64,000 nt of DNA from Escherichia phage CJ20: the sequence record MT533174.1; one strand, written 5' to 3'. Shown here in pieces: positions 29,790 to 45,802 of this stretch. Under the pieces are notes generated by a model. The model did no database searches, was not told the DNA's origin, and saw only the letters and a program-made list of their open reading frames with translations. The position numbers and the translations under genes are program-made. Positions within the stretch are counted from its first letter, which is position 1; the number at the start of each line of letters is the position of its first letter.

Positions 29790-30122
29790 ATGAACATAAA
29801 GACTTACAACGAGTTTTTAGCCGAATCCGCCATCAATGAGACCAAATCAATTGATGATAGTGAAGGCTCTCTGAAATTTGGTTTAACCAAAAATGCAGAT
29901 GGTGTTTTCTTTCAGATTGGTAATGAACGTTTTCAAACGTCCAAATATTCCAAAGCTGCAGTTGAAGCTGTCCTGAAATCTGGTGGCAAGTGGAAAGGCA
30001 AAGAAGGTACTAAAGAAATTGGCATCGCTGTTGACGGTGGTATGGCTTATTTTAAAATTGGCGATGAACAATTTATTATGTCTGCTCGCGGACGTAAAGA
30101 ACTGGCAAAACTTTATAAATAA
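29790..30122 (+). CDS. internal protein (ip)-like, with variant capsid-targeting N-terminus MNIKTYNEFLAE
   Basis: 110 codons from the ATG at 29790 with GGAG RBS; N-terminus is a variant of the T4 IP capsid-targeting sequence MKTYQEFIAE; lies at the T4 ipI position after 57B. Confidence 0.7.
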   Translation: MNIKTYNEFLAESAINETKSIDDSEGSLKFGLTKNADGVFFQIGNERFQTSKYSKAAVEAVLKSGGKWKGKEGTKEIGIAVDGGMAYFKIGDEQFIMSARGRKELAKLYK

Positions 30123-30130
30123 GGTTTCTT

Positions 30131-30403
30131 ATGAAAACTTTCAATGAATTTTTCAACGAGTCCCAACTGAATGAAGAAGTAAAAATTAGTAAAGCAGTCA
30201 AAGCTATGATTGACAATATCAATCACCTGTACAGCATTGACTTGACTGACCATATAACAATTGGTAACAAACGCAACTTTTTCGCGTTTGACATCTCTGA
30301 ACTTGACCAGAACCAAATTAATAACATTGAGCGTTTTGCCAATGACAAGGGTCTCCGCCATGAGACAGCTGGTTATAAAAAATATGCAATTTATCTAAAA
30401 TAG
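30131..30403 (+). CDS. internal protein (ip)-like, N-terminus MKTFNEFFNE
   Basis: 90-aa ORF with a variant CTS N-terminus; second gene of a tandem ip cluster. Confidence 0.7.
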   Translation: MKTFNEFFNESQLNEEVKISKAVKAMIDNINHLYSIDLTDHITIGNKRNFFAFDISELDQNQINNIERFANDKGLRHETAGYKKYAIYLK

Positions 30404-30411
30404 GATTTCAA

Positions 30412-30711
30412 ATGCAAACTTTTCATGAATTTTTGGTAGAAAACAATTACCTGGCGGAAGCAAAAACCTGGCCTCTGGGTCTTCAGAAGAAAAACACCTA
30501 TAAATGGGTTGACTTCAAAGGTAAAGGCGACGCTGAAGACTTTGACCAGCTGCGTAAAAATGGTTATACCTTCCTTGACTCTAACTATAACAAAATTACC
30601 TCTTTTAGTCAGAAGTCAAGCATTGCCTTCATTGAAACTGGTAAGAACTCTCCTAAAGATATTTCTGACGACTTCGCCGCTTATGGTGTAATTCGTGGTT
30701 CAAAAATGTAA
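30412..30711 (+). CDS. internal protein (ip)-like, N-terminus MQTFHEFLVE; paralog of the gene at 44475
   Basis: 99-aa ORF; variant CTS; shares GDAEDF...NGY(T/S)F...IAF(I/V)...G with the ip-like gene at 44475-44738. Confidence 0.7.
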   Translation: MQTFHEFLVENNYLAEAKTWPLGLQKKNTYKWVDFKGKGDAEDFDQLRKNGYTFLDSNYNKITSFSQKSSIAFIETGKNSPKDISDDFAAYGVIRGSKM

Positions 30712-30740
30712 TGTACATGATGGGATAGTTGCAGTATAAT
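30711..30740 (+). promoter_or_regulatory. T4-type early promoter with stem-loop (PeSL-like cassette)
   Basis: -35 ATGTAC (30711-30716), 18-nt spacer, -10 TATAAT (30735-30740) centred in the inverted repeat GGGATAgttgcagTATAATTATCCC. Confidence 0.6.
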
Positions 30741-30766
30741 TATCCCATCAACTACTGGAGCTACTA

Positions 30767-31045
30767 ATGAAAACTTATCAAGAATTTATTAACGAATCAA
30801 TTAGTCACCCGGATATGCTGGAAGACCTGAAAGGACATCTGATGGTTAAGGCCAAACCGGTTGATGGTGGCGCATTTGAGTTGTTTCTTGTTAAAGGCGA
30901 AAACGGTCCTGATAACAAGAAAGTTTCAGCAATGATGTTGACTAAAGGTTACAAAGTCAGTTCTTCCTGGAATGCTCCATTCACTTACGCGGTAAGCCCT
31001 CGTGAACTGAAAAAAGTTAAAGCTGGACAATATACAAAAATTTAG
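30767..31045 (+). CDS. internal protein (ip)-like, N-terminus MKTYQEFINE
   Basis: 92-aa ORF beginning with the canonical CTS MKTYQEFI.E; GGAG RBS. Confidence 0.75.
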   Translation: MKTYQEFINESISHPDMLEDLKGHLMVKAKPVDGGAFELFLVKGENGPDNKKVSAMMLTKGYKVSSSWNAPFTYAVSPRELKKVKAGQYTKI

Positions 31046-31074
31046 TGTACGTGATGGGATAGTTGTAGTATGAT
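31045..31074 (+). promoter_or_regulatory. T4-type early promoter with stem-loop (PeSL-like cassette)
   Basis: -35 GTGTAC (31045-31050), 18-nt spacer, -10 TATGAT (31069-31074); same GGGATAGTTG...ATCTCATCAACTACTGAGGAG leader as the copy at 30711. Confidence 0.55.
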
Positions 31075-31102
31075 TATCTCATCAACTACTGAGGAGAATA
31101 AA

Positions 31103-33919: not shown

Positions 33920-33949
33920 GTGTACATCCGAATTGACCGGGTGCATAAT
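33920..33949 (+). promoter_or_regulatory. T4-type early promoter (PeSL-like cassette with conserved leader)
   Basis: -35 GTGTAC (33920-33925), 18-nt spacer, -10 CATAAT (33944-33949), then the conserved leader GATTCCATACTGAGTTACA...GGAGAAATAAAATG. Confidence 0.6.
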
Positions 33950-34000
33950 GATTCCATACTGAGTTACACACTGAATCAAACAAAACTTTGGAGAAATAAA

Positions 34001-34426
34001 ATGAACTTTCTGACCCTGACCTCTGCATTCTCTGTTACCCGCATCACTAACAAAATGGTTGCTGACGAAGTATGTGAAATCTGCATTCGTGAAGATGCAC
34101 TTATTCATCTGACTTCAACCCAGATTGTTGCCATCGCCAAGTCCCTTAATTCTGAACTGAAGGTAAACACCAAACAGTCAAAAGAATCTATCATTGAATT
34201 AATCCAAGCTGAAATGATTGAATTTCCAATTGAAGAAGTTAAAGAAGAAAAAATCCAGTCCAAATCTGGTAACGCTCGTGACATTTGCTTCCAGGCATTT
34301 GCAGAAATTGATATGAATGATAATGCAGCTCGCCGCGCTCTGATTGATGTTCTGGTTACCACCCATGATATCAAAAAGACTGTTGTTCAGTCATATGCAT
34401 CCAACTTCCGCAAAGCTCAAAAATAA
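34001..34426 (+). CDS. hypothetical protein, 141 aa; C-terminal domain paralogous to the gene at 34879
   Basis: ATG at 34001 after GGAGAAATAAA; C-terminus ...DNAARRALIDVLVTTHDIKKTVVQSYASNFRKAQK shares a roughly 50-aa domain with the 34879 protein. Confidence 0.65.
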   Translation: MNFLTLTSAFSVTRITNKMVADEVCEICIREDALIHLTSTQIVAIAKSLNSELKVNTKQSKESIIELIQAEMIEFPIEEVKEEKIQSKSGNARDICFQAFAEIDMNDNAARRALIDVLVTTHDIKKTVVQSYASNFRKAQK

Positions 34427-34438
34427 TTGAGAAAAGTG

Positions 34439-34467
34439 TTTTACTTCCAGGTGGGATAGTGTATAAT
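34439..34467 (+). promoter_or_regulatory. T4-type early promoter with stem-loop (PeSL-like cassette)
   Basis: -35 TTTTAC (34439-34444), 17-nt spacer, -10 TATAAT (34462-34467) inside the inverted repeat GGGATAgtgTATAATTATCCC; conserved leader ...CATACTGAGTTAACAAATAAAACACTGGAGAATAAAATG. Confidence 0.6.
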
Positions 34468-34508
34468 TATCCCATACTGAGTTAACAAATAAAACACTGG
34501 AGAATAAA

Positions 34509-34805
34509 ATGTTCAACGCACCTGCATGGCACGCTACCCAAGCTCAAGAAGAAAACAAAGCAATCATTTCTGCTAAAATTGAAGCTCAACTGAATGAATT
34601 GTGTGAAACTGCTTCTGAAGAAGTTGTTGCAATCATCAAACAGTATCCTGCATCCAACTACTCCCTGGCATGCATCAAAACAGAAATGGTTAACTTGTGG
34701 CGTAAGAACAAGAAAACTTTCTTGGGTATGCAGTACCAAGCAATCGCGTCTGCAGTAGTAAACATGTATGACTTTGAAGTTTATTTCCCAACTTCTGAAA
34801 ATTAA
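34509..34805 (+). CDS. hypothetical protein, 98 aa
   Basis: ATG at 34509 after the conserved GGAGAATAAA leader (MFNAPAWHATQAQEENKAIISAKIE...). Confidence 0.6.
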   Translation: MFNAPAWHATQAQEENKAIISAKIEAQLNELCETASEEVVAIIKQYPASNYSLACIKTEMVNLWRKNKKTFLGMQYQAIASAVVNMYDFEVYFPTSEN

Positions 34806-34806
34806 T

Positions 34807-34836
34807 GTGTACTTTGGAATTTAACTAAGACATAAT
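34807..34836 (+). promoter_or_regulatory. T4-type early promoter (PeSL-like cassette with conserved leader)
   Basis: -35 GTGTAC (34807-34812), 18-nt spacer, -10 CATAAT (34831-34836), then GATTCCATACTGAGTTAACAAATAAA. Confidence 0.6.
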
Positions 34837-34878
34837 GATTCCATACTGAGTTAACAAATAAACAAACGGGATAATAAA

Positions 34879-35322
34879 ATGAAAACTTCAAAACTGGTTA
34901 AGTATGTTAAACTGGCATTAAACAACTCTTCTGAAGCTGAAGCACAATCCGCAGCACGTATGTTCTTCAAACGTCTGACAGCTGAAGGTATTTCATTTAA
35001 CCCGGCAGTATTTGGTATCACTCGTGGCGAAGCTGCTAAACTGGCAACACTGGCAGGTAAAATTTTTAAAGGTCTGAATGATGGACAGGTTAAACCAGAA
35101 GTTAAACCTACTCCTAAGACTGAACCAAAAGCTGAACGTAAGGCACCTAAACGCTCCGGTATGAGCAACAAAGATTTATGCTATGATATGTTCAAAACTG
35201 TTAATATGTCTAATGGTGCTGCTCGCAGAGCTGTTATTGATATGATTGTGCGTGAGTTTGGATTCAACAAAGCATCAGTTCAGTCTTATGCTTCCAACTT
35301 CCGCAAAGAATTTGAAATTTAA
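34879..35322 (+). CDS. hypothetical protein, 147 aa; C-terminal domain paralogous to the gene at 34001
   Basis: ATG at 34879; C-terminus ...SNGAARRAVIDMIVREFGFNKASVQSYASNFRKEFEI. Confidence 0.65.
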   Translation: MKTSKLVKYVKLALNNSSEAEAQSAARMFFKRLTAEGISFNPAVFGITRGEAAKLATLAGKIFKGLNDGQVKPEVKPTPKTEPKAERKAPKRSGMSNKDLCYDMFKTVNMSNGAARRAVIDMIVREFGFNKASVQSYASNFRKEFEI

Positions 35323-35329
35323 TTCAAAA

Positions 35330-35355
35330 AGGGGGGTATACAAGCCCCCTGCTTT
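35330..35355 (+). terminator. hairpin, possible weak terminator overlapping the next early promoter
   Basis: GGGGGG-tatacaag-CCCCCT hairpin followed by GCTTTA; the -35 of the downstream promoter lies in its loop. Confidence 0.4.
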
Positions 35356-35365
35356 AAGGCATAAT
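35336..35365 (+). promoter_or_regulatory. T4-type early promoter (PeSL-like cassette with conserved leader)
   Basis: -35 GTATAC (35336-35341), 18-nt spacer, -10 CATAAT (35360-35365), then the GATTCCATACTGAGTTACACAATAAAACACTGGAGAATAAAATG leader. Confidence 0.55.
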
Positions 35366-35406
35366 GATTCCATACTGAGTTACACAATAAAACACTGGAG
35401 AATAAA

Positions 35407-35712
35407 ATGAAATTCATCATCAACCTGGCGCTTGTTGACTTTGATAAAACTGGTAATTTCGCATCTGCTGAAAATATGATTCGTAACACCAAGTTTAAAG
35501 TGCAAGTTCAACAGGCGGTAGCAAAAGAGTTCTTTACTGATAAATTAACTAACGTTGTCAATCACCTGAATGTGCAAGTTAAATTTACTCGTGAAGCAGA
35601 AACTACTGTTGCATTTGATTTTGACTGCCAATACCATGATGAATATGTTCGCCGTATCCTGGATATTGTGTCTGATGAACTGTATTATGGTGTGCAGGAA
35701 AACAAAATCTAA
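35407..35712 (+). CDS. hypothetical protein, 101 aa
   Basis: ATG at 35407 after the conserved leader (MKFIINLALVDFDKTGNFASAENMIRNTK...). Confidence 0.6.
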   Translation: MKFIINLALVDFDKTGNFASAENMIRNTKFKVQVQQAVAKEFFTDKLTNVVNHLNVQVKFTREAETTVAFDFDCQYHDEYVRRILDIVSDELYYGVQENKI

Positions 35713-42796: not shown

Positions 42797-42819
42797 ATAC
42801 CCCTATATAAGGGGGTATT
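42797..42819 (+). promoter_or_regulatory. stem-loop immediately 5' of the e start codon (possible RBS-occluding hairpin)
   Basis: TACCCC-tatataa-GGGGGTA hairpin ending 1 nt before TTATG; the G-run that should act as Shine-Dalgarno is within the 3' arm. Confidence 0.5.
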
Positions 42820-43311
42820 ATGAATATATTCGAAATGTTACGCATAGATGAAGGTTGTAAGTTGGATTTGTATAAAGATACTGAAGGCTATTGGACCATT
42901 GGTATCGGGCAACTGATAACTAAGAACCCATCAAAAGATGTTGCTCGTGCCGAGCTCGACAAGCTCATGGGTCGCGTCTGTAATGGTCGCATAACCCAGC
43001 ACGAAGCTGAAACATTGTTTAACCGTTCGGTCGAAAAAGCTAAAGCCGGAATCTTGAGACACCCTGTCTTAAAACCTGTTTATGATGTGCTAGATGAAGT
43101 TCGTCGTTGTGCACTCATTAATATGGTATTCCAGATGGGTGTTGCTGGTGTTGCTGGTTTTCCTAAGGGTATGCGATTGTTGAAGGCCAAATCGTGGGAA
43201 GCCGCCGCCAAGGAACTGGCCGACTCGAGATGGTATAAAGTCCAGACTCCGAACCGAGCCAAACGAGTTATAGAAACGTTCCGTACCGGAACTTTTAGCG
43301 CATACAAATAA
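42820..43311 (+). CDS. e: endolysin (lysozyme), T4 e-like
   Basis: 163-aa [37 protein letters not shown]... matching T4 lysozyme, with catalytic E11, D20 and T26 positions preserved. Confidence 0.95.
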
Positions 43312-43319
43312 GGTAAAAT

Positions 43320-43622
43320 ATGAAAACGTATAAAGAATTTATCACCGAAGCGCGCGTAAGTGCAGGTAAATTAGAAGCCGCTGTAAATAAAAAGGCCCAT
43401 TCATTTCATGATTTACCAGATAAAGACCGTAAGAAACTTGTAAGCCTTTATATTGACAAAGAGCGTATTCTAGCTCTCCCTGGCGCTAACGAAGGTAAAC
43501 AGGCCAAGCCTTTGAATTCTGTCGAAAAGAAAATTGATAACTTTGCTTCTAAGTTCGGCATGTCTATGGATGACCTTCAGCAAGCGGCTATCGAAGCAGC
43601 TAAAGCAATTAAAGGTAAATAA
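43320..43622 (+). CDS. internal protein (ip)-like, N-terminus [10 protein letters not shown] (T4 ipIII/ipII position)
   Basis: 100-aa ORF beginning with the capsid-targeting sequence; lies between e and denV, where T4 carries ipIII and ipII. Confidence 0.75.
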
Positions 43623-43624
43623 CA

Positions 43625-43653
43625 GTTTACTTCCACGATACGTGTGATATAAT
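43625..43653 (+). promoter_or_regulatory. T4-type early promoter with stem-loop (PeSL-like cassette)
   Basis: -35 GTTTAC (43625-43630), 17-nt spacer, -10 TATAAT (43648-43653), followed by the inverted repeat GTTCTCCTacaaacatAGGAGAAC, which contains the RBS. Confidence 0.6.
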
Positions 43654-43681
43654 GTTCTCCTACAAACATAGGAGAACAAAC

Positions 43682-44098
43682 ATGACTCGCATTAATTTAA
43701 CCCTGGTATCTGAACTCGCTGACCAACATCTTATGGCTGAATATCGTGAACTTCCTCGCGTGTTTGGTGCTGTTCGTAAGCATGTGCAAAATGGTAAAAA
43801 GGTGTCTGACTTTAAAATCCCATCATCTTTTCTTTTAGGGACTGGTCATGTCACCTTCTTTTATGATAAGCTTTTGTTCCTTAAAAACCGGCATCAAGAA
43901 CTTATTGCGGAATGTTTAAAGCGAGGGTTTAACATAAAAGATATTTCTACCCAAGATTTAAATGATATTCCTGATGAATGGAAGAATGATTATCAACCAT
44001 CAATCTGGTCAATTGAAATCAGTCAAGCCAGACTGAATGAGAAAATTTCTCAAAAGCCTACCTGGTACAAATACTATGGGAAAGCTGTGTACGCTTAA
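43682..44098 (+). CDS. denV: endonuclease V (pyrimidine-dimer DNA glycosylase/AP lyase), T4 denV-like
   Basis: 138 codons from the ATG at 43682; [34 protein letters not shown]... is nearly identical to T4 DenV as I recall it; the ORF-track N-terminal extension is rejected. Confidence 0.93.
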
Positions 44099-44146
44099 CT
44101 AAAAAGGTTGTATAATGATTTTATCAACCAAACAATGGAATATAAA

Positions 44147-44461
44147 ATGAAAACTTATCAAGAATTTATTACTGAATCTACCCAAAAACGTGTTGAAGGC
44201 GGTTATGTCTGGATTGAACAATTAACCCCACCAAGTGAAACGAGCACGGGTTCGTGGAAAATTACTGTTGATGGCCCTGGTGGAAAACGTAAGACTATTA
44301 AAGAAATTAAAGGCTATTATGATGAAGCCAAATCATGGGCTGGTAGTCATGTAATGCAGATTAAAATTGCAAACCCGGATAACGTTCATGCGGCAAAAGC
44401 ATTCCGTCGCATTGGTAATAAACTTTATGATGCGTTTTTGCGTGATTTCCCTAAAGAGTAA
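44147..44461 (+). CDS. internal protein (ip)-like, N-terminus MKTYQEFITE
   Basis: 104 codons from the ATG at 44147; canonical CTS N-terminus. Confidence 0.75.
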   Translation: MKTYQEFITESTQKRVEGGYVWIEQLTPPSETSTGSWKITVDGPGGKRKTIKEIKGYYDEAKSWAGSHVMQIKIANPDNVHAAKAFRRIGNKLYDAFLRDFPKE

Positions 44462-44474
44462 TTAAAGAGACATT

Positions 44475-44738
44475 ATGAAAACTTATCAAGAATTTATTAC
44501 TGAATCTGCTAAAGCTCCTACCGGTGCTTTTAAAGTCCGCGCCTTCGCTGGTGATGCTGAAGACTTTGGCACCATGAAGCGCAATGGTTATTCTTTCTTT
44601 GGTGGCGATGGTAAAGAAATTGTTACCTATGCAAAACGCCGCGAAATCGCATTCGTGGTTGCTGGTAAGAAAGTTGATGTTGACGATATTGAATGGGATT
44701 TTGATACCTTTGGTATTGTTTCTGGCGGTAAAGCATAA
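44475..44738 (+). CDS. internal protein (ip)-like, N-terminus MKTYQEFITE; paralog of the gene at 30412
   Basis: 87-aa ORF; CTS N-terminus; GDAEDF...NGYSF...IAFV...G shared with the ip-like gene at 30412. Confidence 0.75.
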   Translation: MKTYQEFITESAKAPTGAFKVRAFAGDAEDFGTMKRNGYSFFGGDGKEIVTYAKRREIAFVVAGKKVDVDDIEWDFDTFGIVSGGKA

Positions 44739-44740
44739 CT

Positions 44741-44768
44741 GTTTACTTTATGATGGGATAATTATACA
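44741..44768 (+). promoter_or_regulatory. T4-type early promoter with stem-loop (PeSL-like cassette)
   Basis: -35 GTTTAC (44741-44746), -10 TATACA (44763-44768), inverted repeat GGGATAattatacacTATCCC. Confidence 0.5.
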
Positions 44769-44794
44769 CTATCCCATCAACTTGGAGCGAATAA

Positions 44795-45094
44795 ATGAAA
44801 ACTTATCAAGAATTTATTACTGAAGCCAAAGCTCCTAAAGCATTTCAAATTGGGGTTCAGGGTAATTTAGACCAACAATATGTTGATGCTATTGTAGCAA
44901 GCCTCGGCAAGCAGGGTGTACAAGTGGATTTGGTTGATTTTACTAAAGGTAATACTTTTAATATTGTTACATCTAAAGGTTCTTTAGCTAAAGTTAAAAA
45001 GGCCTTTGGTGTAGCACAAGCATACGAAATCGACCATTCTGAATTAGAAAATAAAGGTCGCCAGAACACAATTAAAGGCTCTGGTTCTTTTTAA
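44795..45094 (+). CDS. internal protein (ip)-like, N-terminus MKTYQEFITE
   Basis: 99-aa ORF with the canonical CTS. Confidence 0.75.
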   Translation: MKTYQEFITEAKAPKAFQIGVQGNLDQQYVDAIVASLGKQGVQVDLVDFTKGNTFNIVTSKGSLAKVKKAFGVAQAYEIDHSELENKGRQNTIKGSGSF

Positions 45095-45256
45095 TAAAGG
45101 CAAACCGACCCTCTCCTCATGAACGTCGCGTCCTCTGAGTGATGGACCTTTCCCTACCTGTAATAAGGTCGAGCCCGAGTGCGGTAAGGGGTTTACATTC
45201 GGATACATGGATGAATTATGTGCCAAGGAACGGCCCCAACTTAAAAAGAGACAATT

Positions 45257-45802
45257 ATGAAAACGTTTTTAACCGGTAGTTATCTATCCCTGATGAATGC
45301 TTTTGCAAACCATTCTGATGCTAGAGTAGAGCACATTTGTAATAGTGGGTTTTATGTACCTGATTCACAAACCCTGTTTAAAGAATGCTGCACCCTAAAA
45401 CTTGATGGTGGACGCCAATCTGGTAAAACAAGGGCAGTATCCATTTTTGCGTCTGATTGGCTCGCAGGTGGTGGGACTGTAATTATTTTGTCTAATTGCG
45501 CCGCGTATGCTAATGTTTCGGCTACTGCAATCCGAAAGGAATATTTTAATAACCATACAGAAAGTATTAAGCACCGTTTGTACACTGATTCTGTTCGTAG
45601 TTTTATTGGTAACACTGCATGCAAATTCCGTGGATTATCACTTTCACGGGTTCTGTATATAATTGATGAGCCTGTTAAAACACCTGATATGGATAAGATT
45701 TATGATGCCCACATAAAGGTTGTGCATTATTGCTGTCGTGCATCATGTGAAGAAACCAATCAAACCACACGTCCTCTGTTCTTTGTGATAGGAATGCAAT
45801 GA
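45257..45802 (+). CDS. small P-loop NTPase, 181 aa
   Basis: ATG ORF with Walker A DGGRQSGKT and Walker B VLYIIDEP; preceded by a 160-nt GC-rich intergenic region. Confidence 0.7.
   Translation: MKTFLTGSYLSLMNAFANHSDARVEHICNSGFYVPDSQTLFKECCTLKLDGGRQSGKTRAVSIFASDWLAGGGTVIILSNCAAYANVSATAIRKEYFNNHTESIKHRLYTDSVRSFIGNTACKFRGLSLSRVLYIIDEPVKTPDMDKIYDAHIKVVHYCCRASCEETNQTTRPLFFVIGMQ

What the first reader, a model, noticed from the sequence alone, without database searches (positions are those of the whole stretch)
43320..45094. Cluster B of ip-like genes flanking denV, including a paralog pair shared with cluster A
Four more genes with the canonical CTS ([10 protein letters not shown], then three with MKTYQEFITE) flank denV at the T4 ipII/ipIII locus. 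The gene at 44475 and the cluster-A gene at 30412 share a cargo-domain signature (GDAEDF...NGY(S/T)F...IAF(V/I)...G), implying duplication or exchange between the two ip loci about 14 kb apart. With cluster A this gives eight CTS-tagged genes against three in T4, making this the most obviously diversifying locus in the window.
Basis: partly seen in the sequence, partly recalled or inferred. Interest (0 to 1): 0.55.

Follow-up and report, generated by a model that had tools for sequence, protein, structure and literature searches.

The report
Known T4-type internal-protein gene cluster
These are four genes for small proteins that a T4-like phage packs into its head and injects with its DNA, probably to disarm host defences; they are real, but both the genes and the variability of this locus are already described.

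Summary
Four same-strand ORFs (43320-43622, 44147-44461, 44475-44738, 44795-45094) start with the T4 capsid-targeting sequence MKTY(K/Q)EFITE and flank denV (43682-44098). With four more at 29790-31045, these are the only CTS-type ORFs in the window.

The window is a Gaprivervirus (VR7/SP18-like).
- B1 is the T4 IpII orthologue (94/100 aa).
- B2, B3 and B4 correspond to VR7 ip10, ORF127c and ip7.

The 30412/44475 similarity is real: with the CTS removed, E = 7e-14 and z is about 19-20, and no other pair is related. It is an old split, not a recent exchange. The A-type always sits after 57B and the B-type after denV, in several genera.

Ten related phages carry one to three ip genes at this locus; the window carries four. 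Junctions show the crossover lies inside the 33-nt CTS-coding repeat. ipII looks laterally acquired: 94% nt identity to T4, against 68-71% for the flanking genes.

This is the hyperplastic IP locus described in 1994, so it is already known and of low interest.

By-product: a roughly 160-nt unannotated element upstream of vs.8, found in 962 phage records, with covariation support for a fold.

The parts
42820..43311 (+). e (lysozyme): conserved left flank of the ip locus
   Evidence: 98-99% aa identity to e of VR7, MN01 and P896; 69% to T4 e.
43320..43622 (+). B1: ipII orthologue. [13 protein letters not shown]; mature form 90 aa, pI 9.7
   Evidence: 94/100 aa and 94.4% nt identical to T4 ipII. 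phrog_7857 'internal virion protein', E = 1e-54. 100% identical in MN01 and P896; absent from VR7, TH57, TH15, TH41 and RZ.
43626..43678 (+). Promoter plus stem-loop spacer (PeSL-like) upstream of denV
   Evidence: TTTACT-N16-TATAAT with a TG extension. A 10-bp stem-loop at 43653-43678, MFE z = -4.6. Matches the PST/T4 PeSL promoter consensus TTTACW-N17-TAYWAT except for a 16-nt spacer (PMC4122927).
43682..44098 (+). denV (endonuclease V); not an ip gene, sits inside the cluster
   Evidence: 97.8-100% aa identity to denV of nine of the ten Gapriverviruses sampled (phage 212: 64.5%); 78% to T4 denV.
44093..44146 (+). Constant leader after denV: GCTTA, 13 nt, TATAAT (44111-44116), then a weak hairpin and the RBS
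   Evidence: The 60 nt upstream of the first post-denV ip gene are identical or differ at one position in nine related phages, whichever cargo follows. Reading it as a MotA-type middle promoter is inference.
44147..44461 (+). B2: ip10-type. CTS MKTYQEFITE; mature form 94 aa, pI 9.6
   Evidence: 99% identical to VR7 ip10; 67% to RB69 ORF124c. phrog_3966, E = 2.5e-32.
44475..44738 (+). B3: VR7ORF127c / RB69 ORF125c type. CTS MKTYQEFITE; mature form 77 aa, pI 6.2. Paralogue of 30412-30711
44742..44779 (+). TTTACT box plus 10-bp stem-loop (GATGGGATA...TATCCCATC) upstream of B4
   Evidence: MFE z = -5.8. The same GATGGGATA/TATCCCATCAAC stem is found in the 57-nt repeats flanking A4 at 30701-30757 and 31035-31091.
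44795..45094 (+). B4: ip7-type. CTS MKTYQEFITE; mature form 89 aa, pI 9.3
   Evidence: 97-100% identical to ip7 of VR7, MN01 and P896. phrog_2667 'internal head protein', E = 8e-43. Present in all 10 Gapriverviruses sampled.
44147..44179 (+). 33-nt CTS-coding repeat. Other copies at 44475-44507 (33/33), 44795-44827 (31/33), 30767-30799 (30/33) and 43320-43352 (27/33)
   Evidence: Repeat family D2. It is the crossover point in the P896, TH15, phage 212, TH44, MN01 and RZ junctions.
30412..30711 (+). A3: cluster-A paralogue of B3, with a degenerate CTS MQTFHEFLVE
   Evidence: 75-79% identical orthologue directly after 57B in Gelderlandvirus.
45089..45260 (+). Conserved unannotated element between the last ip gene and vs.8 (right boundary of the variable locus)
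45257..45802 (+). vs.8 homologue (right flank)
   Evidence: 95% aa identity to TH44, 63% to RB69, only 38% to the VR7 allele.

Best explanation
Cluster B is one of the two hypervariable internal-protein (ip) loci of T-even-type phages, here in a Gaprivervirus. Each of the four genes encodes a small protein of 8-11 kDa once processed.

Proposed mechanism, by analogy with T4:
- The 10-residue N-terminal capsid-targeting sequence docks the protein to the scaffolding core of the prohead.
- The prohead protease gp21 cuts after the I-T-E motif.
- The mature cargo stays among the packaged DNA and is injected with it.
- In the cell it acts stoichiometrically as a binder or inhibitor of a host defence before any phage gene is expressed.

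B1 is IpII, and so most likely blocks a BrxU/GmrSD-type type IV restriction enzyme of the ECOR21 class. B2 (ip10), B3 (ORF127c type) and B4 (ip7) have unknown targets. B3 and its cluster-A paralogue A3 are old, locus-faithful copies, best read as specificity variants of one inhibitor scaffold.

The locus diversifies by homologous recombination at short shared sequences: the 33-nt CTS-coding segment at the start of every cassette and the promoter/stem-loop spacers between cassettes. Whole cargo modules are thereby deleted, inserted or imported from other genera.

Shown here: the CTS motifs, orthology, paralogy, cassette combinations, crossover junctions and the foreign-looking identity of ipII. 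Inferred: packaging, cleavage and injection in this phage, and the anti-defence targets.
For: CTS with all functionally mapped residues in all four genes (PMC9026906).

Orthology:
- B1 is 94/100 aa identical to T4 IpII.
- T4 Ip1, Ip2 and Ip3 each inhibit a distinct GmrSD type IV enzyme (PMC12373910).
- B2, B3 and B4 are 96-100% identical to VR7 ip10, ORF127c and ip7, and match PHROG internal head/virion protein families.

Packaging in a relative: the Morganella phage MP1 member of the A3/B3 family is P0015, 11,212.6 Da. This matches gp136 (11,210 Da) next to 57B. It was found in purified virions with 6 unique peptides and 59% coverage (PMC5384007 Table 1).

Physical properties: mature pI is 9.3-9.7 for B1, B2 and B4, as for the T4 IPs.

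Cassette combinations at this locus in 10 Gapriverviruses:
- e-denV slot: IpII, a different ip, or nothing.
- After denV: B2-B3-B4, B3-B4, or B4 alone.

Junctions: the constant post-denV leader and CTS DNA are fused directly to the B3 or B4 cargo. The CTS DNA is 33/33 identical between B2 and B3.

Lateral transfer: ipII is 94.4% nt identical to T4, against 68-71% for nudE, e, denV and vs.8.

Stem-loop spacers have z scores of -3.3 to -5.8.

The A3/B3 family contains only small CTS-bearing phage proteins among 1.84 billion representative sequences.
Against: - There is no proteomic or genetic data for this phage.
- The MP1 virion preparation also contained non-structural proteins (ligase, clamp), so detection there is supportive rather than conclusive.
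- ip4-ip10 were tested against 15 GmrSD groups and gave no reproducible inhibition (PMC12373910 section 10 and Suppl. Fig. 9). An anti-GmrSD role for ip7/ip10-type proteins is therefore unproven and may be wrong.
- B3 is not basic (pI 6.2).
- No exact late promoter TATAAATA lies in 43000-45300, so expression at the time of head assembly must rely on other promoters or read-through.
Confidence: 0.8

Rival explanations
1. The proteins are packaged, but their main role is structural or physical: basic DNA-associated proteins that neutralise charge, help head assembly or packaging, or aid ejection. On this view their sequence diversity is mostly drift under weak constraint.
For: B1, B2 and B4 are small and basic. 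In T4, about 1000 IP molecules are embedded in the DNA and their lysines contact phosphates (PMC3012670). IPIII mutants assemble heads more slowly (PMC9026906). ip4-10 showed no reproducible anti-GmrSD activity.
Against: All three T4 IPs now have specific defence targets. IP-null T4 grows on laboratory strains. Cargo families keep 67-75% identity across genera, and B3 folds confidently into a compact domain, which argues for specific function. Presence or absence varies between near-identical phages, as expected for host-specific accessory genes.
Confidence: 0.15
2. The 30412/44475 pair arose by a recent duplication or gene conversion between the two ip loci of this phage lineage.
For: The two proteins are clearly homologous. 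Both loci share CTS-coding DNA and stem-loop spacers that could mediate ectopic exchange.
Against: The cargo domains are only 38% identical. Each type has 75-79% identical orthologues at the same locus in Gelderlandvirus, and the A-type sits at the 57B locus even in Morganella phage MP1. The A and B clades are separate, with bootstrap 98 and 77. Mosigviruses carry only the B-type.
Confidence: 0.04
3. The conserved N-terminal 10 codons are kept mainly as a DNA or RNA element (a translation-initiation region or recombination site). Some of these ORFs would then be ordinary cytoplasmic early proteins that are not packaged.
For: The CTS-coding DNA is identical even at synonymous sites between B2 and B3 (33/33) and is demonstrably a crossover site. 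The promoters upstream look early or middle rather than late.
Against: The 10-residue CTS is sufficient to target foreign proteins into T4 heads (PMC3012670, PMC9026906). The amino-acid pattern is kept even where the DNA differs, as in B1, A1-A3 and the metagenomic family members. The MP1 family member was detected in virions.
Confidence: 0.05

Closest known systems
T4 internal protein II (IpII/Ip2) and the T4 e-ipIII-ipII-denV locus
   Same: B1 is 94/100 aa identical (95.6% in the mature part) and sits between e and denV as in T4. It has the same CTS architecture. T4 Ip2 inhibits GmrSD-ECOR21.
   Different: The CTS differs at two residues (K5, T9). There are four substitutions in the mature part. 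There is no IpIII here. Three further ip genes lie on the other side of denV, where T4 has none.
Gaprivervirus VR7 ip10, VR7ORF127c and ip7; RB69 ORF127c, 125c and 124c
   Same: B2, B3 and B4 are 96-99% identical to the VR7 genes, in the same order. RB69 has B3- and B2-type genes (72% and 67%) after denV and an ip gene between e and denV.
   Different: VR7 lacks the e-denV ip gene. RB69 has the B3 and B2 types in the opposite order and lacks ip7. No record in the 50,697-phage collection has the window's full four-gene arrangement; the best, TH57, covers 85% and lacks B1.
T4 IPI* (GmrS/GmrD inhibitor; solved NMR structure)
   Same: The same delivery logic (CTS, gp21 cleavage, injection) and a small single-domain cargo (PMC3012670).
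PeSL (promoter-early stem-loop) cassette boundaries and the hyperplastic IP loci of Repoila et al. 1994
   Same: Early-type promoter plus stem-loop spacers lie between variable ORFs. Insertions and deletions coincide with these elements and with the conserved ip leader.
   Different: At this locus the observed deletion junctions lie inside the CTS-coding repeat rather than in the spacer. The stem sequences differ from the published RB49 and nt-1 consensus sequences.

Membership tests
T4-type internal (injected) head proteins | N-terminal ~10-residue capsid-targeting sequence resembling MKTYQEFIAE, with an aromatic residue at 4 and F at 7 (targeting) | tested here: met
   All four B genes and all four A genes. 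Residue roles are from PMC9026906.
T4-type internal (injected) head proteins | gp21 cleavage motif (L/I)-x-E at the end of the CTS | tested here: met
   B1-B4 have I-T-E at residues 8-10. Cluster A has L-A-E, F-N-E (atypical), L-V-E and I-N-E.
T4-type internal (injected) head proteins | Encoded in one of the two hypervariable ip loci (after 57B, or the e/denV/vs.8 region) | tested here: met
   Synteny with VR7, RB69, T4 and STML-198.
T4-type internal (injected) head proteins | Small, basic mature protein | tested here: inconclusive
   B1, B2 and B4 have pI 9.3-9.7 at 9.5-10.6 kDa. B3 has pI 6.15 at 8.3 kDa.
T4-type internal (injected) head proteins | Physically present in virions in processed form and ejected into the host | not testable with these tools
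   Indirect only: the MP1 homologue of A3/B3 was found in virion MS with 59% coverage. T4 IpII is a classical virion protein.
T4-type internal (injected) head proteins | Partner machinery (gp22 scaffold, gp21 protease) in the same genome | not tested
   I did not look for genes 21/22 in the window. They belong to the T4 core genome (PMC9026906).
IpII (Ip2) orthologous group, anti-GmrSD(ECOR21) | Full-length sequence orthology to T4 IpII | tested here: met
   94/100 aa; phrog_7857, E = 1e-54.
IpII (Ip2) orthologous group, anti-GmrSD(ECOR21) | Inhibition of the cognate type IV restriction enzyme | not testable with these tools
   Shown for T4 Ip2 only (PMC12373910).
PeSL promoter/stem-loop cassette boundary | Early promoter (TTTACW-N17-TAYWAT type) combined with a stem-loop, in spacers next to variable ORFs | tested here: met
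   Upstream of denV: 10/12 promoter match plus a 10-bp stem. A4 is flanked by 57-nt repeats that are 89% identical. The element upstream of B4 has the TTTACT box and the stem but no well-spaced -10.
Rfam RNA families (for the element at 45089-45260) | Match to any curated covariance model | tested here: not met
   No hit at gathering threshold or at E <= 1. No tRNA or tmRNA.

The most novel reading that the evidence does not exclude
The B3/A3 family (RB69 ORF125c type) may be an uncharacterised injected inhibitor family. I found no evidence that it is among the ip1-ip10 genes tested experimentally, though I could not check the sequences of those genes. Its compact alpha/beta fold has no significant solved or predicted relative outside the family. 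Its two paralogues have been kept at the two separate ip loci since before Gaprivervirus, Gelderlandvirus and Mosigvirus diverged, perhaps because they neutralise two variants of one still unidentified host defence. Separately, the 160-nt element that closes the locus may be a new conserved structured leader RNA of vs.8.
Probability: 0.3. Interest if true: 0.5.

Novelty: already known. Interest (0 to 1): 0.2.

Why it matters
Injected internal proteins act before any phage gene is expressed and help set the host range of T4-like phages, many of which are candidates for therapy. After the 2025 demonstration that T4 Ip1, Ip2 and Ip3 each block a different GmrSD type IV restriction enzyme, every uncharacterised ip family became a candidate anti-defence protein. 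This locus adds no new kind of system. It does give a clean natural example of how cargo modules are swapped at the CTS-coding repeat. It also picks out one family (B3/A3) with paralogues at both loci, proteomic support in a relative and no known target, which makes it a sensible candidate for target screens.

Tried and rejected
- Pfam: no family reached its cut-off for any of the eight proteins.
- Foldseek against BFVD: only family members matched.
- HMM search of 1.84 billion representatives: long TIG/IPT and EF-hand repeat proteins scored by summing many short stretches. Pfam showed these to be artefacts.
- PHROGs places B4 with B3/A3 (phrog_2667) and B2 with A1 (phrog_3966). With the CTS removed, hhalign of the B3/A3 profile against each other cargo gives probabilities <= 0.8%, and pairwise z < 1.4. 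I therefore do not claim those as further paralogue pairs. The A1-B2 test used pairwise scores only.
- IMG/VR scan for family loci: returned only genomes already seen.
- The 20-nt core of the conserved element in 185,579 prokaryotic genomes: 5 hits, all limited to the seed itself. I estimate about 17 such hits by chance, and none matched the covariance model.
- RNAalifold on a plain MAFFT alignment of 28 element copies gave a different, weak consensus. Single-sequence folding of the element is no better than shuffles (z = 0.02).
- One literature search for the element was swamped by dengue 'DENV' papers.
Full report
**Source and observation**

The window comes from a T4-like phage of the genus Gaprivervirus (VR7/SP18 group). 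Megablast of 42800-45300 finds 274 phage records. The best are Escherichia phages TH57, MN01 and TH44, and only one record covers at least 80% of the query.

A six-frame scan for the capsid-targeting-sequence (CTS) pattern returns exactly eight ORFs in 64 kb. All are on the + strand and all carry the motif at the ORF start.
- Cluster A: 29790, 30131, 30412 and 30767.
- Cluster B: 43320-43622 (B1, [10 protein letters not shown]), 44147-44461 (B2), 44475-44738 (B3) and 44795-45094 (B4), the last three with MKTYQEFITE.

denV (43682-44098) lies between B1 and B2. The only correction is that B2 starts at ATG 44147.

**What the genes are**

- B1 is the orthologue of T4 IpII: 94 of 100 residues identical and colinear. 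It lies between e and denV, as ipII does in T4.
- B2, B3 and B4 are 96-99% identical to VR7 ip10, VR7ORF127c and ip7, in the same order.
- RB69 has B3-type (ORF125c, 72%) and B2-type (ORF124c, 67%) genes after denV, and another ip gene between e and denV.
- PHROGs assigns all eight proteins to phage families, five of them labelled internal head or virion protein. Pfam has nothing.
- Cluster A lies directly after 57B, the classical ipI locus.

All four B proteins have Y4, F7, I8 and E10. In T4 IPIII these residues were mapped as important for head targeting (4, 7) and for gp21 cleavage (8, 10) (PMC9026906). Predicted mature products are 8.3-10.6 kDa. B1, B2 and B4 are basic (pI 9.3-9.7); B3 is not (pI 6.15).

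**The paralogue pair**

With the CTS removed, A3 (30412) and B3 (44475) align with E = 6.6e-14 and 38% identity over 61 residues. The Smith-Waterman z-score is about 19-20 against shuffles. All 27 other cargo pairs have z < 1.4. So the homology is real.

It is not recent, for four reasons.
- tblastn shows 207 phage records with a B3-type gene and about 37 with a second place.
- The A-type gene sits immediately after 57B in Gaprivervirus, in the Gelderlandvirus STML-198 (gp199, 79% to A3) and in Morganella phage MP1 (Gualtarvirus).
- The B-type sits after denV in Gaprivervirus and Mosigvirus, and next to vs.8 at the same locus in Gelderlandvirus.
- A neighbour-joining tree of 15 cargo domains separates an A clade (bootstrap 98; 54 when MP1 is included) from a B clade (77), each spanning several genera.

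The two copies are therefore old, locus-faithful paralogues.

PHROGs also groups B4 with B3/A3, and B2 with A1. Once the CTS is removed I could not reproduce either relationship.

**Evidence for packaging**

Nothing can be measured for this phage. However, the MP1 family member (P0015, 11,212.6 Da) matches 'gp136' in the published MP1 virion proteome. That entry is listed at 11,210 Da, lies next to the 57B homologue gp137, and has its best hit in Salmonella phage STP4-a. It was detected with 6 unique peptides and 59% coverage (PMC5384007 Table 1). That preparation also contained some replication proteins, so this evidence is supportive rather than conclusive.

**How the locus varies**

In ten Gapriverviruses the e-to-vs.8 interval holds one to three ip genes; the window holds four.
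- The e-denV slot is empty (VR7, TH57, TH15, TH41, RZ), holds IpII (MN01, P896, and the window itself), or holds a different 89-aa ip gene (phage 212, TH44).
- After denV there is B2-B3-B4, B3-B4, or B4 alone.

The 60 nt upstream of the first post-denV gene are identical or differ at one position in all of them. These 60 nt and the CTS-coding DNA are joined directly to the B2, B3 or B4 cargo. The CTS-coding 33-mer is 33/33 identical between B2 and B3 and 31/33 in B4. The deletions or insertions therefore have their crossover inside this repeat.

The spacers carry early-type promoters and strong stem-loops:
- upstream of denV, TTTACT-N16-TATAAT plus a 10-bp stem, z = -4.6;
- upstream of B4, z = -5.8;
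- two 57-nt repeats, 89% identical, that bracket A4.

These resemble the PeSL elements proposed to mediate cassette shuffling in T4-like phages (PMC4122927).

The ipII cassette is 94.4% identical in DNA to T4 ipII, while nudE, e, denV and vs.8 are 68-71% identical. This points to lateral transfer of the cassette between genera.

**Function**

T4 IPI* inhibits GmrS/GmrD (PMC3012670). In 2025, T4 Ip2 and Ip3 were each shown to inhibit a different GmrSD type IV enzyme, with no cross-protection (PMC12373910). By orthology, B1 most likely blocks a GmrSD of the ECOR21 (BrxU-like) class.

ip4-ip10 were tested against 15 GmrSD groups without reproducible hits. The targets of ip7/ip10-type proteins therefore remain unknown, and I found nothing reported for the ORF127c/ORF125c family. 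The best-supported mechanism is stoichiometric inhibition of host defences by pre-made injected proteins. A mainly structural, DNA-associated role is the principal rival.

**Comparison with what is known, and novelty**

Both the phenomenon and the genes are already described. The literature states that only a CTS is conserved among highly diverse internal proteins. It also records that two hyperplastic loci encode them and shuffle between phages (Repoila et al. 1994, as cited). The specific four-gene combination is not present in any of the 50,697 phage records searched, but it is a new mix of known cassettes. I rate the finding as already known and of low interest.

**By-product**

The roughly 160-nt GC-rich spacer between B4 and vs.8 (45089-45260) is conserved in 962 phage records and is unannotated in many of the records listed. 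In every locus I examined it lies directly upstream of vs.8, whatever ip gene precedes it and whichever vs.8 allele follows. It is 94% identical to VR7 in DNA, while the vs.8 proteins are only 38% identical.

- It matches no Rfam family and no tRNA or tmRNA.
- A covariance model finds exactly one copy in each T4-like locus that contains this region, and none in the chance seed matches from prokaryotic MAGs.
- On the structure-guided alignment of 28 copies, 94.2% of cells pair. Five pairs (25 cells) show compensatory changes, concentrated in one helix. No shuffle out of 500 reaches the observed covariation score.

There are caveats. That alignment was fitted to the model. A plain MAFFT alignment gives a weaker and different RNAalifold consensus. 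The single-sequence fold is not unusually stable. The element is a candidate structured leader RNA of vs.8, or a DNA-level boundary of the variable locus, and remains unresolved.

Noticed in passing
window 45089-45260 (+): A roughly 160-nt GC-rich intergenic element directly upstream of vs.8. It is conserved in 962 T4-like phage records across many genera and has no Rfam match. It is more conserved than the genes on either side. A covariance model finds one copy in each locus that contains this region, and 5 base pairs show compensatory changes. It may be a structured leader RNA or a boundary element of the variable ip locus.
   Followed up: partly
window 30701-30757 and 31035-31091: Two 57-nt direct repeats, 89% identical, each with a GTACNTGATGGGATA...TATCCCATCAACTACTG stem-loop enclosing a TATAAT/TATGAT box. 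They bracket the cluster-A gene A4 (30767-31045) exactly, like a cassette bounded by PeSL elements. A related stem lies upstream of B4 (44751-44779).
   Followed up: partly
window 33920-35409: Four copies, 370-530 nt apart, of a 47-49-nt promoter-like repeat (GTGTAC...CATAATGATTCCATACTGAGTTA...GGAGAATAAAATG). They sit in front of small ORFs downstream of the tRNA genes and look like another run of cassette-type spacers.
   Followed up: no
window 43320-43622 compared with T4 (L013 2898-3200): The ipII gene is 94.4% identical in DNA to T4 ipII, while the flanking nudE, e, denV and vs.8 are only 68-71% identical. This indicates comparatively recent lateral transfer of this one cassette between Tequatrovirus-like and Gaprivervirus lineages. 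93-100% identical copies also occur in Klebsiella phages.
   Followed up: partly
window 44505-44545 and 44825-44850: B3 and B4 share more than the CTS. Both continue with (S)AKAP..AF (SAKAPTGAFKV and AKAPKAFQI) and a common 10-nt stretch AAAGCTCCTA. This may explain why PHROGs merges them, although the rest of the cargo domains are unrelated.
   Followed up: no
window 45257-45802 compared with L001, L007, L011: vs.8 exists as two very different alleles within Gaprivervirus. The window, TH44, TH15 and RB69 have one type, 61-95% identical to the window. The VR7, TH57, MN01 and P896 type is only 38% identical. Both are preceded by the same conserved 160-nt element.
   Followed up: no
window 30412-30460: The Gaprivervirus A3 protein has a degenerate CTS (MQTFHEFLVE) followed by a second L-A-E motif at residues 14-16. 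Its Gelderlandvirus orthologues keep the canonical MKTYQEFINE. This suggests possible use of a second gp21 site, or relaxed targeting.
   Followed up: no
window 30114-30121: Of the 12 exact T4 late-promoter boxes (TATAAATA) in the window, only one lies next to an ip gene. It overlaps the end of A1, just upstream of A2. Cluster B has none.
   Followed up: no
P0016, P0010, P0027 (metagenomic relatives of B3): Some Mosigvirus-like copies of the B3-type gene appear frameshifted or internally deleted (P0016 diverges after residue ~40; P0010 and P0027 lack the central part). This suggests ongoing decay or loss of this cassette in some lineages.
   Followed up: no
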